From NCBI GenBank assembly GCA_963727775.1, contig CAVSHB010000001.1, forward strand, positions 1-64,000: a DNA stretch of 64,000 nt, written 5' to 3'. Made by a program: the position numbers. The DNA comes from an uncultured Nitrospiraceae bacterium. Lineage in GTDB: Bacteria; Nitrospirota; Thermodesulfovibrionia; Thermodesulfovibrionales; SM23-35. This document shows positions 36,001 to 42,000 of this stretch, piece after piece (position 1 is the first letter of the stretch; each line of letters starts with the position of its first letter).

Positions 36001-39000
36001 GTGGGAATTTGGTAGCTCACCCACATAGCTTGAGGGAGGTGCAAAGGGTAACCTGAAGCATTAAGTTTCCTGACAAAGGCTCCGAAAGGGAGCTGAGCAA
36101 ACCCGCAGGCCGCAGCGTAAGCGAACCTATGTGTAGCCTCGTTAGTGATAAACGGAGTTGTCGACCCTCTCCTACATTGGGGAAGACCGTAGCATCTATC
36201 CTAACAGAAACTACCGTAACCGATAGATGGGCTCCCGGGGTGACAGGGGTGGCATGCAGGGGAAGCCATATGATAATAAACACGGGAGACCCGTGTCGAT
36301 GCCTTCAGAGGGTAACTGGTGGATATAAGGAAACGAAGTTTCACTGGGTCGGCATGGGAGTCGGAGTTGCCCATAGTACCGCTACTATCTCAAAGACAAC
36401 ATAACTTTGAGAGAGGGAAGGGGCAATACCTTCATCATGTTTCCGAAGGAGTAAAGGAAAGGAGATTGCGGCAACGCTATAAACTCCAGTAGTTCTGGGA
36501 ACTTCAGAGGAAACTATACCAGTAGACCAAGCGGTAGCGAAAGCCTCTGGAAGAAGATGATTGGAAAGCCGGATTCGGGAAAACCGACCGTCCGGTTGTG
36601 TGTCCAGCGAAGGCTGGTGTGTTCAGCAGGAGACAGTCCTGCCATGGCAATAGTCAGAAGCCATGTAGTTAGGATGGCAAGGTAAAGGGAAACCGATATC
36701 CTGAAGCCCATCGACACTATCATCAAAGGGATGATAACGAGTTGCCAGGCCGCAACGAAAGTGAACGTAGAGGTGGCCCCGAGAGTTCGAAGCCCTGAAG
36801 GCCGAGTTTTCAACCGTAGGGTGAAGGCAGCATAGGTAATCGAAAACTGACTGATACGGTTATTTACTTCAGCGGGGTGATAGCGGCGGCATGGCAGCAA
36901 GGGCACACCGAGCAACTGGAGAAACCCTCATCGCCCCAGTGAGAAATCACCGGAGCAAGGTAAGTCCTATAACCAGAAACACTGGGAAGTGGGCTGAAGG
37001 CGGAAGGGTGGCGGAAGGGTCAGCAGTAGCGAAGAAGCAGGGTAATTCCTGTGGAGCGAAGAGGCCCTACTTTTGGCAATCCTCTAACAACATTGTGAGG
37101 CAGGGATGGAATGACAAAGACATCTGTTAGTCTGCAAGAGCTGAGGAAGAGGATCTACGTCAAGGCGAAAGCTGATAAGCATCATCGCTTTTGGGGATTG
37201 TATGTTCACGTATGCAAGGTGGAGACGCTCCAATCGGCCTATGAGATGGCCAAACGCAATGACGGGGCACCGGGCATTGATGGTGTCACCTTCGAGGCTA
37301 TTGAGGAAAGCGGGCTGGAGGAGTTTCTCCTCGGCATACGAAATGAACTGCTTTCATGGATGTACCTGCCTATGCGAAATCGGAAGAAAGAGATACCAAA
37401 GGACAACGGAAGAGTTCGTGTTTTGGGGATACCAACAATCCGAGATAGGGTAGTGCAGGGCGCGCTTAAGCTTATTCTTGAACCAATCTTTGAAGCTGAC
37501 TTTCAAGAAGGCTCATACGGGTACCGTCCGAAGCGGACAGCGCATCAGGCGGTGCATCGGGTCGCAGATGCGGTAGTCCACAATAAAACACGGGTCATCG
37601 ACGTTGACCTCAAGGCATACTTTGATACAGTGCGTCATGACATATTGCTGAGCAAAGTAGCAAGAAGGGTCAACGATGACAGAGTGATGTGGCTGCTCAG
37701 ACTCATACTAAAAGTCAGTGGTAAGCGCGGAGTTCCACAGGGCGGATTATCCAAAGCTTTGGATAATCCGCCTTATCAAAAGTAATATATTATCCAAAGT
37801 AAATGCTGTAAGCGCTTGATACAGTTAGGTTTGTGTTTCATTTACTTTGGATAATACTGCGTGTGTTAGAGACGGCTTAGCCAGGCAAGTAGCCCTTCAT
37901 CTTGGTTCCACTGCGGCAAATCAGTTACAACCATGTCGGGATATGCTTTTTCTAACGCTTTTCGTTTCAGCTCAGTATCTGTACGGGCATAAATTTCAGT
38001 TGTTGAAATATCGACATGCCCTAAAAGATCCCGGATATAAATCAGGTTAATCCCTGCCTGTAACAAATTCATCGCCTTCGTATGCCTGAAAACATGGGGG
38101 GTAACATTATCCGGAATAATCGAAGACACTGCCCTTGCACGAGACACGTATTTGTTCAGAATGAATGTAACGCCCATTGGAGTCAGCTTGCCGCGCTGGC
38201 GATTTACAAATAACGGGCGGTCCTGCATGCCGTTTTGAAGCAGATAAGTTTCGGTCATGTACTGCCGCAGCAGGGATTCCATATTGGACATAATTGGAAC
38301 CTGCCTGGTTTTGCGGCCTTTGCCAGTCAGGGTCAGGATTGGTGGATGATCCAATCGGACATCACGAACCTTTAGATCAATCAACTCCTGAACTCTGGCC
38401 CCTGTATCATACAGTGCCGAAAGCATCGTTAAGTCACGACGGCCACTGGCTTTGGAAAGATCGGGCTGGGCAAGAATGAGTTTCAATGCATCAGGTGTGA
38501 GATAATGCACCGTTGGCTTTGGAGCTTTCTTCATCGGAATTGAGAGAATTTTCTGGTATGACAATAGACCGACAGGGTCTTCGACCTGCATATACCTACA
38601 AAAGCCATGAATACAGGCCAATCGTTGGTTGCGCGTAGCGATACTGCTTTTTCTGTCTTGTTCAAGCCATGAGAGGAACCCAACCACGAGTGGCTCATCG
38701 ATGCGTTGTAGACAGATATATTCAATGGACAGGCCGCAACCCTGTTTGCAGTATATGAGAAACAGTTTGAAAGTATCCCGATAAGATTTGATCGTGTTGG
38801 GGCTGACATTGCGCTGGCCCGGCAGATAAACGGATAGGTAATGAGATAATGCCTTGGCAAAGTCAGTTGGTTTCATAGTCTTCACTCCTCATAATAGGTA
38901 TGACATGGCCAAAAGCATGGTCCACCTTTGCCGTTATATCCGGATAAAGTTCAGCGGTCAGCCTCAAGTACTGGGATGTATCGCTAAAGGAATGATGGCC

Positions 39001-42000
39001 CAGATACGTTTTGAGAATAGGCAGGTAGGCAGTCAAATCCTTTCCTTCCAGCACCCAGCGCCTCAGACAATGAACAGCATGGCTATGCCTCAAATCGTGG
39101 AGCCGCGGCCCTTTTCCCCATCCACCATGAGAAATCCGGGCTTTCCAAAGGAATTTCCTGAAATTTTTATAGACATTCCCTTTGGTTATCGTTTTTCCGT
39201 TCGGAGAAGGAAAGAAATAAGCGTTAGAATCAGAAAACAAATGGACCTGCTTCATATAGGCAGGACATCTATGAAGTAATTCCTTGGACATAGGAACCAG
39301 CCTGTCCTTGTTGAATTTCCCATCCATAATCGTGAGGACACCAGTGTTCAAATCTACATCCCGCACTTTGAGATTCAGCGCCTCCGAAATACGCAACCCA
39401 CAGCCATACAACATACGGAACAGCAGCGGCATGATCCAATGTCTGTTCGGAACTTCGGCACAGTAATGGCAAGCATCCACTTGTTTGAAAAACTCTGCAA
39501 GCTCATCATTGCTGAAAATGTAGGGAATGTATCTGGGTCCCTTCGGGAGGGTATTTTTGGGAAGCACATAAGCATGCACCCCGAGACGAGTCATGTACAT
39601 GGCCAGTTGCCGTACAACGCATACCCTGATCTGTAAAGTCGCCTGAGCTTCATTCGGGCGTTTCTGACGCCATGAATCGACAAGTTGTTTGGACAGTACC
39701 GGTTCTGTGCAGCCGTATGTCAGACAGAACTGATCAAAATGGTAAAGCACCCGTGCACTGCTGTCATACTTATACCCCAGCGAACGCTTTTGTAGAATCA
39801 CTTCCTGGATAAATTCCTGAAATGGACTGCTATATATGAATTCGGTCATGACTCGAACACCCCCTCGGGGTTCAGCGCGCATTCACGTAGCATCTCCACG
39901 TCCACCTTAAGATAGACAGCCGTTGAATCCGAACTGACGTGTCCCAATATATCGGAAATAACGGATAAGGGTGTTTTCTCTTGAAGTAATCTGCTTGCCA
40001 GCGTGTGCCGTAAGGAATGCATGCCTCTCTTTTTCTGAGGAGAAATCGGGATTTTGGCCAGTCTCATATATTTGACCAAGATTTGATGCAGTCTGTCTTC
40101 ATCCGAGAATGGTTCCAGTGGCGCAAGGTGCCGCAAAAAAACGTAGGGGCTTTCCACCTTGGGACGCCCATTTTTCAGATAATCAATGATCGCCCAGCCG
40201 ATATCGGGAAGAAGTGGGAGGCTCAGCACTCCGGACGTTTTGGACTGTATCAATTCGATGCGATTATCCGGCCATTTCAGGTTGTCCAATTTCAAACGCT
40301 TGATATCTATCGTACGGAGGCCCAACCGCGCGACCAGAAGGATCATTGCATAATCCCTTCTTCCGGCAGGATTGCCTCTGTCTATGACATCGAGCAACTT
40401 GGCGACATGCTCCGGAGTCCATACCGAAGGAATTCTGTTTTGCTTTCTGGCCTTAATCGCAGGGATGGTTTCTGCCAGGTCCTGTGGATGAAGATCGTTA
40501 GTGTGAAGATAGCGCAAAAACGAGCGCAACGCACAAAGATGCAATTCTACAGTCTTATAGCTGTACCCCAACAACGTGTTGATATAGCCGGATACATGTT
40601 TAGCGGTAATATCTGAATAAGAGACAATCTTTTGTGATTCCAAAAAACTCAGAAACTGTTCGGAAATTTTACCATAGTGATTTTGTGTCACTTTGGAGTA
40701 TTCCTTCTGCTGGCAATGGGTTACATAGTACTGCAGTACCTCCTTGAATTCGTCGTTATACAGCAGCTCTTTCTGTTTGTAGTACCTGCGCAGAATGCTG
40801 CCATGTTGCTGGAAGTCACCAAGCATCCGGACAACTCGAAAGGCGTTAATGATCGATTGCGTTAGATCTCCCGCTTCCTCTAATTCGAAAAAGTTATACT
40901 GCTTGTCCAGAAAACGCATACCCACTTCTTCTGCAAAGTGGTCGACTCCTTCGTTTTCGAAAAACGCGACAATACGTTTCCACATCATGCGATAGTACTT
41001 TACCGTATCTTTTTTGTAATGGAGACGGTACAGTTCTTTTTCCAGTCGTGTGATTAAATCTTGCAAAGGCGGGCTGTTCATCGGTATTCCTCCAAAATAT
41101 TTAGTGAGATCGGTTCTTCAATCTCCCATAAATACCTTGGTCTGCCGTATTATCCAAAGTAAATGAACCCCAAACCTAACTGTATCAAGCGCTTACAGCA
41201 TTTACTTTGGATAATATTTTACTTTTGATAAGGCGGAGTAATCTCGCCCCTACTGTCGAATATCTATCTTAACGAGGTGGATAAGATGCTGGAGAAGGCG
41301 AAAATCGTAACGAGCAAATCTGGTTTTACCCATGTCGAATATGCTCGTTTTGCGGATGACCTTGTGGTACTCGTAGATGGGTATCGCCGCTGGGACTGGC
41401 TGGTAGAGAGGGTATATCGGCGACTTCTTGAGGAGTTCGCAAGAGTTGATGTAACAGTCAACGAAGAAAAGACACGACTGGTAGACCTGATGAAAGGAGA
41501 GAGCTTCAGCTTTCTGGGATTCGACATTCGGAGTGTCCGAACACTGAGTGACAAATCAGGAGTGCTTATTACGCCAAGGATGAAAGCGCGGACGACCCTT
41601 TTGCATAACCTCAAGGAAATCTTCCAGCGCTTCATATCGCAACCAGTGGGCCGGGTGATAGAACTGATCAACCCGAAACTCCGGGGCTGGGTTAACTACT
41701 TTAGGGTGGGACATTCCAGCAGGTGTTTTCAGTACGTAAAAGATTGGGTGGAGAAGAAGATACGGCGGCATCTTATGAGGGCTCGAAAACGGGGAGGCTT
41801 TGGCTGGGACAGGTGGAGTAGAGACTGGTTTTACGGGCATCTTGGGCTTTATGCCGATTATAAGGTGAGGTATTACCGTGGACTCGAAAGCGCTGCCAGC
41901 GGATAGGCATCATAACCCTTGAGGAGAAGCCAATAGGAAAGCGTAGTGCGGGAAATCCGCACGCTGCGTTTGACGTGGCAGGGAATGGAGAAGTGCCATG

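What a model noticed while it worked through the whole genome (the two positions that open the first line are those of the whole stretch)
37746..41252. Recombinase-in-trio (RIT) element that inserts at one palindromic site inside group II intron RT genes
A 3.47-kb element of three tyrosine-recombinase genes (g00034-36) and ~94-bp terminal inverted repeats sits inside the reverse-transcriptase ORF of group II introns at three places: C1:37764-41237, C1:478298-481771 (99.9% identical, opposite orientation) and the start of C4 (contig breaks in the repeat). The two complete host introns are only 86% alike in their 5' parts, yet the junctions are the same: intron-ATTATCCAAAG|CTTTGGATAAT-element and element-|CTTTTGATAAGGCGG-intron. 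A related intron carries the unoccupied site ATTATCCAAAG|CTTTTGATAAGGCGG (C1:318654-318679), an imperfect inverted repeat of TTATC(C/A)AAAG around an AAAG/CTTT core, i.e. the attB of a site-specific integration. A seco [...]
Evidence so far: Gene order RVT_1 | 3 x Phage_integrase | GIIM at both loci. blastn of C1:35501-44000 against the genome: 3474-bp match 99.94% to C1:481771-478298, inverted terminal repeats 94 nt 95.7%, 5' intron parts 86.3%. Junctions read directly. Exact pattern ATTATCCAAAGCTTTKGATAA: 6 hits at 4 places in G000 (three occupied junctions, one empty site), 0 for the backward control, 0 in 400 other Nitrospirota genomes. Second family: the flanks of the C1 copy match those of the C3 copy in reverse order and strand while the 3413-bp core matches in the same strand.
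(Added by a program. Inside this text positions count along the whole contig: contig position 1 is position 1 of the stretch shown here. "Call 12" and the like, gene names such as g00115 and contig names such as C1 are that model's own, and its searches are not shown. The text may have been shortened before it was handed on; [...] marks where a part breaks off. The agent that wrote the report below was given it as the finding of a first reader that could run no searches.)

Follow-up and report, generated by a model that had tools for sequence, protein, structure and literature searches.

The report
Recombinase-trio transposon homing into intron genes
A small mobile element with three recombinase genes belongs to a lineage that nearly always lands at the same two codons of the reverse-transcriptase gene of self-splicing introns, and its junctions show the likely attachment site and cutting rule of an element class whose way of moving is still unresolved.

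Summary
The element is real: an intact RIT (three tyrosine recombinases, 3,459 bp) splitting a group II intron reverse transcriptase (RT) at PQGG|VISP. All four RT 5' halves in this genome (34-64% identical) stop at that codon. In relatives, 109 of 115 readable element ends abut this RT motif, against 0 of 46 in more distant RITs.

The 20-bp palindrome belongs to the element. The true empty site is a single Gly-Gly hexamer, seen in two public runs that lack exactly 3,491 bp. The 'empty' copy at C1:318.7 kb is a scar joining halves of two introns.

The layout is RT5'-hexamer-20-bp cap-inverted hexamer-element-hexamer-RT3'. A metagenome contig holds the predicted joined ends. In both testable lineages the target's hexamer stays at the cap-less end and a foreign one arrives beside the cap. 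Best model: a circle with two inverted 10-6-10 sites, possibly folded as a single-stranded hairpin like CTXphi attP (inferred).

This scan found RT-homing RITs and the cap before, on other DNA. I did not find them in the searchable papers; Ricker 2013 was unreadable. New variant of a known kind; interest 0.6.

The parts
37111..37746 (+). 5' half of the group II intron RT/maturase ORF (212 aa), ending ...GVPQGG
   Evidence: TIGR04416 profile 2-184
37741..37746 (+). Outer hexamer h1 (GGCGGA, Gly-Gly in the RT frame). By the rule seen in two other lineages this copy came with the element; not testable here because all three hexamers are the same
37747..37766 (.). 20-bp palindromic cap: two back-to-back 10-bp arms of the same type as the element's own repeats; part of the element's attachment site
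37767..37772 (-). Inner, inverted hexamer h2 (TCCGCC); target-type 6-mer, read as a footprint of an earlier target
   Evidence: 40 of 40 inner hexamers read Gly-Gly/Ser/Ala
37773..37860 (.). Terminal inverted repeat at the ritC end; three binding-site-like repeats (two direct, 17 bp apart, and one inverted)
37866..38885 (-). ritC, tyrosine recombinase (339 aa from GTG; the ATG at 38876 overlaps the ritB end by 14 bp); R162, HxxRH 264, LGH..Y
38863..39849 (-). ritB, tyrosine recombinase; likely start at 39849 in an ATGA overlap with the ritA stop (open frame from 39882)
39846..41081 (-). ritA, tyrosine recombinase (411 aa); 37% identical over 406 aa to a ritA-type protein of pHG1
41144..41231 (.). 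Terminal inverted repeat at the ritA end (cap-less end in this copy)
41232..41237 (+). Hexamer h3 (GGCGGA), the target's own 6 bp by the rule from two other lineages
41238..41906 (+). 3' half of the RT/maturase ORF (222 aa, VISPLLSN..., RFADD, GIIM)
36598..42083 (+). Host group II intron (inner intron of a twintron); GTGTG start and ...AC end read from sequence; Rfam D1D4-4 at 36624-36760 and a weak Intron_gpII hit (32.5 bits, below the gathering score of 40) at 41937-42083
35951..36597 (+). 5' part to domain V of the outer, ORF-less intron; 86% to the intron at C1:477 kb; 5' boundary approximate
42093..43366 (+). IS3-family element inside the outer intron's tail; 7 other copies at 99.7% or more
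43366..43419 (+). 3' tail of the outer intron

Best explanation
This is an intact RIT element of a lineage whose target is the conserved G-x-P-Q-[G-G/S/A]-x-x-S-P coding motif of group II intron RT genes.

Shown by comparison:
- The crossover region is the 6 bp of the two codons after PQ.
- The element carries a 20-bp palindromic cap and a second, inverted hexamer.
- Its joined ends read end-hexamer-cap-inverted hexamer-end, which is two inverted arm-6-arm core sites sharing the cap.
- It integrates in either orientation with the cap always on the RT 5' side.
- The target's own hexamer stays at the cap-less end and a foreign one is placed beside the cap, so positions 3-6 need no homology.

Inferred:
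- It leaves as a circle that takes the hexamer of its last target.
- It integrates by exchanging the RT sense strand at the 5' edge of the hexamer, and replication completes the product.
- Use of the older of the two sites flips the element and turns the last target's hexamer into the new inner one.
- The reason for a loop-less cap is probably that one strand of the circle folds on itself, so that the terminal repeats, the two hexamers and the cap form a double-stranded recombination site, as CTXphi attP does (about 45% for this last step).

The C1:318.7 kb site is a scar: half a cap plus one terminal arm, joining halves of two different introns.
For: - All 4 RVT_1 5' halves of G000 end at the same codon and no intact RT was found.
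- RitA 44% or more identical: 109 of 115 informative ends and 76 of 80 loci abut the motif. Below 44%: 0 of 46 ends and 0 of 27 loci.
- The RT-targeting loci form one clade: 74 of 77 tips, FastTree support 0.75.
- The hosts are unrelated introns: 32 5' halves fall into 31 clusters at 90%, median identity 37.5%.
- The naive allele of the window's intron is in 2 of 4 runs laid, skipping 3,491 bp.
- Joined ends are present in L035, about 88% identical to this element.
- Direction rule: G517 has two naive copies carrying the h3 hexamer of its two occupied copies. 5 of 5 naive relatives of the pTiS4 intron carry its h3, not h1.
- Asymmetric caps read as reverse complements at the two element ends in 4 of 4 cases: second family of G000, L020, L051, L096.
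- 40 of 40 inner hexamers are target-type, with 17 distinct sequences.
- Caps are 92% self-complementary against 73% for shuffled halves. Cap letters unlike the element's own repeats occur in both arms 17 times and in one arm 4 times.
Against: - No experiment exists. L035 is one 2.2-kb contig and may be a tandem rather than a circle. It was assembled from DNA, so it does not show a single strand.
- The direction rule rests on 2 lineages.
- 8 of 35 loci with both ends readable are not canonical RT insertions (7 have RT 3' halves on both sides, 1 has caps on both sides) and 2 have a non-RT side. Some may be assembly chimeras, but one lies on a complete plasmid (L132).
- 6 informative ends in 5 loci have other flanks.
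- The three hexamers match each other in all pairings (13, 10 and 9 of 26, shuffled about 2), which does not single out an always-flip cycle.
- 20 end calls were corrected by hand and the 44% cut was chosen after seeing the data. Related loci are not independent.
- Target conservation follows the codons, so I cannot say which bases are read or by which Rit protein.
Confidence: 0.72

Rival explanations
1. Same target and same cap, but the intermediate is an ordinary double-stranded circle with two alternative core sites. Exchange goes through a heteroduplex spacer as in Tn916-type elements, and the cap only supplies a second pair of arms or a synaptic scaffold. No hairpin forms.
For: It explains both orientations, the co-flipping cap, the joined ends in L035 and renewal of the inner hexamer. 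The element encodes no HUH or rolling-circle protein.
Against: A heteroduplex resolved at random should leave the target's hexamer on either side, but it stayed at the cap-less end in both lineages tested (3 insertions). It gives no reason for a loop-less 20-bp cap with paired changes in both arms (17 against 4).
Confidence: 0.4
2. One reading: the palindrome is a host attB inside the intron and the element integrates at its centre.
For: A cap-like 20-mer without an element exists at C1:318655.
Against: Naive introns lack it. That locus is a hybrid of two introns and the 20-mer breaks the frame. The cap lies between joined element ends and accompanies RITs with other targets.
Confidence: 0.02
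3. The element inserted once or rarely and spread as a passenger of the introns, or inverts in place, so the shared site reflects descent and not targeting.
For: In G517 both occupied copies are in the same intron. The 88-bp inverted repeats would allow inversion.
Against: Copies that differ at 1 of 3,459 bases sit in RTs only 47% identical. There are 31 distinct host clusters among 32 halves. Inversion in place would not flip the cap, yet it flips.
Confidence: 0.05
4. The palindrome and repeated junctions are assembly artefacts (its centre is a HindIII site, and contigs break at these repeats).
For: C4 starts and C1 ends inside RIT ends. Some metagenome contigs show impossible-looking flank pairs.
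Against: The same layout occurs in finished sequences (G517 chromosome, pTiS4, Rhodococcus R79 plasmid). Many caps have no AAGCTT centre.
Confidence: 0.01

Closest known systems
RIT (recombinase in trio) elements: Van Houdt 2012 (PMC3414803, passages and section 11 read whole; its one supplementary file searched for intron, reverse transcriptase, maturase and palindrom with 0 hits); Janssen 2010 (PMC2864759, one passage); Ricker 2013 (not seen, cited by others)
   Same: Three overlapping tyrosine recombinase genes, about 3.5 kb, terminal inverted repeats, identical copies in one genome, and insertion into genes of other mobile elements (radC, IS66 tnpA and a Tn6049-like transposase are reported). 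Van Houdt mentions an inverted repeat and an overlapping palindromic sequence at the ends.
   Different: The passages read name no group II intron RT target, no defined crossover hexamer, no joined-end structure and no direction rule. The 2023 table in PMC10214605 lists RIT target specificity, empty site and movement as not tested. The terminal repeats here are 88 bp, against the 28-34 bp (47-51 bp in PMC5737581) reported.
Strand-biased circularizing integrative elements (SE) and Tn554 (PMC10214605; passages and the first part of the Background read)
   Same: Several tyrosine recombinases, target specificity, and a 6-bp spacer carried from the donor site to a fixed side of the new site, with a one-strand (copy-out) model.
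   Different: SEs have four genes with one large recombinase and one spacer in attS. Here there are three ordinary-sized recombinases, a palindromic cap and two hexamers. The side that receives the foreign hexamer follows the target's polarity and the cap, not the element's orientation.
CTXphi attP at dif (PMC3089051, passages read)
   Same: Two inverted core-like sites in the incoming DNA that could pair in a single strand; one strand exchange followed by replication; inverted sites left in the product.
   Different: CTXphi uses host XerC/XerD on a phage single-stranded genome, with about 90 bases between the sites. Here the element encodes its own enzymes, the loop is about 4 bases, and the single-stranded step is only inferred.
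GInts (as described in PMC10214605; in PMC5385486 the term RIT occurs only in the reference list)
   Same: Three recombinase-type genes and site-specific integration.
   Different: GInts need a fourth gene and carry cargo. This element has no cargo and no fourth gene.

Membership tests
RIT elements | Three adjacent same-strand tyrosine recombinase genes in order A, B, C | tested here: met
   PF00589 in all three. RitA is 37% identical over 406 aa to the first gene of a pHG1 trio.
RIT elements | Short overlaps between ORFs (4-8 bp in PMC3414803) | tested here: inconclusive
   A/B overlap is ATGA, 4 bp. B/C overlap is 14 bp from the ATG, or 23 bp from the GTG.
RIT elements | Catalytic R...HxxR...H...Y motif in all three proteins of about 315-410 aa | tested here: met
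   Motifs located in all three; ORFs of 411, 339 and 339 aa.
RIT elements | About 3.5 kb with terminal inverted repeats | tested here: met
   3,459 bp, repeats match at 84 of 88. 21 of 23 relatives measure 3,442-3,487 bp.
RIT elements | Identical copies at several places | tested here: met
   Two full copies differ at 1 base, and a third end is at a contig start.
RIT elements | Assignment to the RitA/RitB/RitC profile subgroups of PMC8138268 | not testable with these tools
   Those profiles are not among the libraries offered. NCBIfam gives only sub-threshold Xer-like hits.
SE / Tn554-type elements | 6-bp spacer carried to a fixed side of the new site | tested here: met
   2 lineages, 3 insertions.
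SE / Tn554-type elements | One large recombinase plus an accessory Srap/TnpC gene | tested here: not met
   Only three recombinase ORFs of 339-411 aa fill the element.
Single-strand hairpin integrators (CTXphi attP type) | Two inverted core sites able to pair in one strand | tested here: met
   The joined ends of L035 fold into arm, mismatched spacer, cap stem and 4-base loop. This is expected from the repeats alone and does not show use.
Single-strand hairpin integrators (CTXphi attP type) | The folded single strand is the real substrate | not testable with these tools
   Needs a recombination assay.

The most novel reading that the evidence does not exclude
RIT elements integrate as self-folded single-stranded circles. 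The loop-less cap builds one arm of a hairpin attachment site, and each move exchanges a single strand without spacer homology and tends to flip the element. The three hexamers therefore record the last three targets. Each RIT lineage is tuned to a conserved catalytic coding motif of another mobile element. This one is a cross-phylum parasite that can disable every group II intron RT in a genome.
Probability: 0.4. Interest if true: 0.8.

Novelty: new variant of a known kind. Interest (0 to 1): 0.6.

Why it matters
RIT elements are widespread, yet a 2023 comparison lists their target specificity, empty site and movement as untested (PMC10214605). This case supplies what an assay needs: a naive target seen in nature, exact ends, a joined-end sequence seen in a relative, and a prediction for where each hexamer goes.

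It also shows a recombinase system reading a degenerate coding motif across RT genes only about 35% identical. That is unusual for tyrosine recombinases (own knowledge) and of possible use for targeted integration.

It may be a check on group II intron spread: no intact RT is left in this genome. It also rearranges DNA, as the hybrid intron shows.

Tried and rejected
- Sibling-phylum searches were sparse: 4 of 401 genomes in the own phylum, 5 of 401 in the family of G401, 1 of 401 in the phylum of G402. This means 'not found in those searched', not absent.
- No run held half of the stretch, and all 21 listed runs were contigs. No excision circle of the window's own copy could be looked for in raw reads, and one search lists no joint joining its two ends (3 joints were not shown).
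- The window's own naive allele cannot test the direction rule because its three hexamers are the same.
- Hexamer sharing among h1, inner and h3 did not separate an always-flip cycle from random use of either site.
- I saw no dyad symmetry or clear wobble-position bias in the target, so the recognised bases remain unknown.
- A third RIT family in this genome (C3:341995-345148) shows no cap at either end. The cap is therefore not visible at every RIT copy; I did not resolve this.
- The HindIII artefact idea was rejected (see rivals).
- Literature searches for RIT found no paper on RT targeting or on the cap as an attachment site. Ricker 2013 (Plasmid) and Van Houdt 2009 did not come up as readable records. 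I recall, unverified, that Ricker described end palindromes and target genes, so part of this may be in print there.
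Full report
1. What is there. Three tyrosine recombinase ORFs on the minus strand (411, 339 and 339 aa; PF00589; catalytic motifs present) lie between the halves of a group II intron RT gene. 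TIGR04416 matches positions 2-184 before and 185-352 after the insert. Read at base level the order is: RT 5' half ending in PQ; hexamer h1 (37741-46); a 20-bp palindrome, here called the cap (37747-66); an inverted hexamer h2 (37767-72); the element with 88-bp terminal inverted repeats (37773-41231; 84 of 88 match); hexamer h3 (41232-37); RT 3' half starting VISP. Removing the insert restores a 434-codon frame. Contigs from 2 of 4 public runs laid on the window hold this intron at about 97% identity with exactly 3,491 bp missing (joint 37740 to 41232). The naive target is therefore a single hexamer and no palindrome.

2. This genome. A second copy differs at 1 of 3,459 bases and is inverted, and a third end starts contig C4. 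The RVT_1 search gives four 5' halves, all ending at the same profile position, three 3' halves and no intact RT. The 5' halves are 34-64% identical to each other. The 'empty' site at C1:318655 has a 5' half from another intron type (34% identical), then half a cap plus a terminal-arm-type 10-mer, then a near-exact copy of the window's 3' half. I read it as a deletion scar between the 10-bp near-repeats after two introns were joined (about 60%), or as excision leaving a cap with one base changed. It is not a naive site.

3. Relatives. Of 135 loci I dropped 14 (2 own, 12 duplicates or sub-stretches) and parsed 121. 20 end calls were corrected by hand. Among 91 loci with RitA at least 44% identical (cut chosen afterwards), the 182 ends were: 47 not in the contig, 3 unclear, 16 too short, 1 joined to another end, and 115 informative. 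Of the informative ends, 109 abut the RT motif (49 cap plus 5' half, 60 plain plus 3' half) and 6 do not; by locus, 76 of 80. Before hand correction the count was 97 of 112. Among 30 more distant loci, 0 of 46 informative ends abut RT; that set is redundant and mostly viral. On a RitA tree (106 sequences, 4 loci left out for short ORFs) the RT loci form one clade of 77 tips with 3 non-RT members, support 0.75. Host RT halves are almost all different: 31 clusters of 32 and 38 of 39 at 90%, median identity 37.5% and 32%. Named hosts include a Cohnella MAG, a Deltaproteobacteria MAG, Paenibacillus, Bacillus S3, Rhodococcus R79 and Allorhizobium pTiS4. Both orientations occur (cap at the ritA end 32 times, at the ritC end 17 times), and the cap was never found on an RT 3' side. 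Against a tidy picture: of 35 loci with both ends readable, 25 are canonical, 7 have 3' halves on both sides, 1 has caps on both sides and 2 have a non-RT side. These may be secondary recombination by the inner site, recombination between copies, or assembly chimeras.

4. The cap belongs to the element. L035, a metagenome contig about 88% identical to this element, reads ritC end, hexamer, cap, inverted hexamer, ritA end. That is the junction expected of a circle or head-to-tail tandem. The second RIT family of this genome has the same layout in an IS91-like transposase motif (family label recalled from the FVRIRHFG motif, not from a call), and its asymmetric cap flips together with the element. 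L020, L051 and L096 show the same reverse-complement relation, two of them with short flanks at contig ends. Caps also flank 18 ends of distant RITs with other targets. One of these is a 6+20+6 palindrome upstream of a ritA on pHG1 whose adjoining repeat is unclear.

5. Hexamer rule. The three hexamers vary independently but are all target-type: 40 of 40 inner ones read Gly plus Gly, Ser or Ala, with 17 distinct sequences. In G517, two naive copies of an intron carry the same hexamer as h3 of the two occupied copies, while h1 differs. For pTiS4, 5 of 5 naive relatives at 91-95% carry its h3 and not its h1. So the target's hexamer stays at the cap-less end. The two G517 copies are in opposite orientation. 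One has as inner hexamer the h3 of the other and as h1 the other's inner hexamer, which is what a move through the older site predicts. Across 26 complete junction sets, inner equals h3 in 13, h1 equals inner in 10 and h1 equals h3 in 9 (shuffled about 2 each). This shows shared history but not a unique cycle.

6. Mechanism. Shown by sequence comparison: target motif, crossover hexamer, element-borne cap, joined-end structure (one contig), direction rule (two lineages). Inferred: a circle that takes the last target's hexamer; integration by one exchange on the RT sense strand at the 5' edge of the hexamer; completion by replication. SE elements and Tn554 give the precedent for a directed 6-bp footprint (PMC10214605). 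The cap suggests more. One strand of the joined ends folds into terminal-repeat stem, mismatched 6-bp spacer, cap stem and 4-base loop, like CTXphi attP (PMC3089051). 25 distinct caps are 92% self-complementary against 73% for shuffled halves (maximum 81% in 5,000 shuffles), and departures from the element's own repeats come in both arms 17 times against 4; related caps inflate both figures. PMC5737581 (passage read) found exonuclease-resistant RIT DNA without a definable circle and suggested hairpins. A duplex circle with two sites remains a strong rival.

7. Known and new. It is a RIT by gene content, size, repeats and homology to a pHG1 trio. The papers seen report insertion in radC and transposase genes and mention a terminal palindrome, but not RT targeting, the joined-end site or the direction rule. 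Ricker 2013 and Van Houdt 2009 were not seen; supplements other than that of PMC3414803 were not searched. Earlier notes of this scan reached the RT target, the travelling cap and the hybrid locus on other DNA. My reading was stated before I saw them and was tested separately here; they are not counted as support.

8. Verdict. New variant of a known kind, making an open question directly testable. Interest 0.6.

Noticed in passing
window 35951-43419: Four-level nest: an ORF-less outer group II intron holds the RT-encoding intron just after its domain V, which holds the RIT, and an IS3 sits in the outer tail. The same inner-intron 3' end followed by the same type of tail recurs at C1:319532 and C2:304386, so the inner intron appears to home to other introns' domain V/VI junction.
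   Followed up: partly
G000 C1:340431-343869, C3:215028-218465, end of C1: Second RIT family with the same cap layout, inserted at the I-R codons of an IS91-like FVRIRHFG motif (label recalled). Contig C1 ends exactly at another such junction, suggesting a third copy.
   Followed up: partly
G000 C3:341995-345148; C4:175510 and C4:51986; C1:20585-20970; C2:570941-571319: Third RIT family with no visible cap, broken copies, and two gene-less miniatures of about 380 bp with matching ends.
   Followed up: no
L103, L105, L106: A separate RIT clade whose flanks rejoin as W-x-x-L-[DN]-x-x-x-F-[GW]-...-V-P-Q-x-R-x-R, resembling a DNA cytosine methyltransferase motif (label recalled, not from a call).
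   Followed up: no
L016, L018, L024, L026, L075, L131, L132; L068: Elements flanked by two different RT 3' halves (one on a complete Bacillus plasmid), or by caps and 5' halves on both sides; possible RIT-driven rearrangements or assembly chimeras.
   Followed up: partly
L025, L048, L058, L060 (ritC end): Members of the RT-targeting clade with non-RT flanks; two still have G-rich hexamers, suggesting occasional off-target insertion or adjacent deletion.
   Followed up: no
G000 C3:79165-81227 and C3:81646-82633: Recombinase unit with a split copy on C2 (259-264 kb), next to a tandem array with a period of about 99 bp.
   Followed up: no
window 22552-23163 (also C3:339802-340413, C2:572.9-573.7 kb): Another repeated tyrosine-recombinase gene beside an IS91-like transposase, next to a miniature RIT at 20585-20970.
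   Followed up: no
window 45906-45948: Strong 43-base hairpin just after the ORF ending at 45909 (spurious Rfam microRNA hit), probably a terminator.
   Followed up: no
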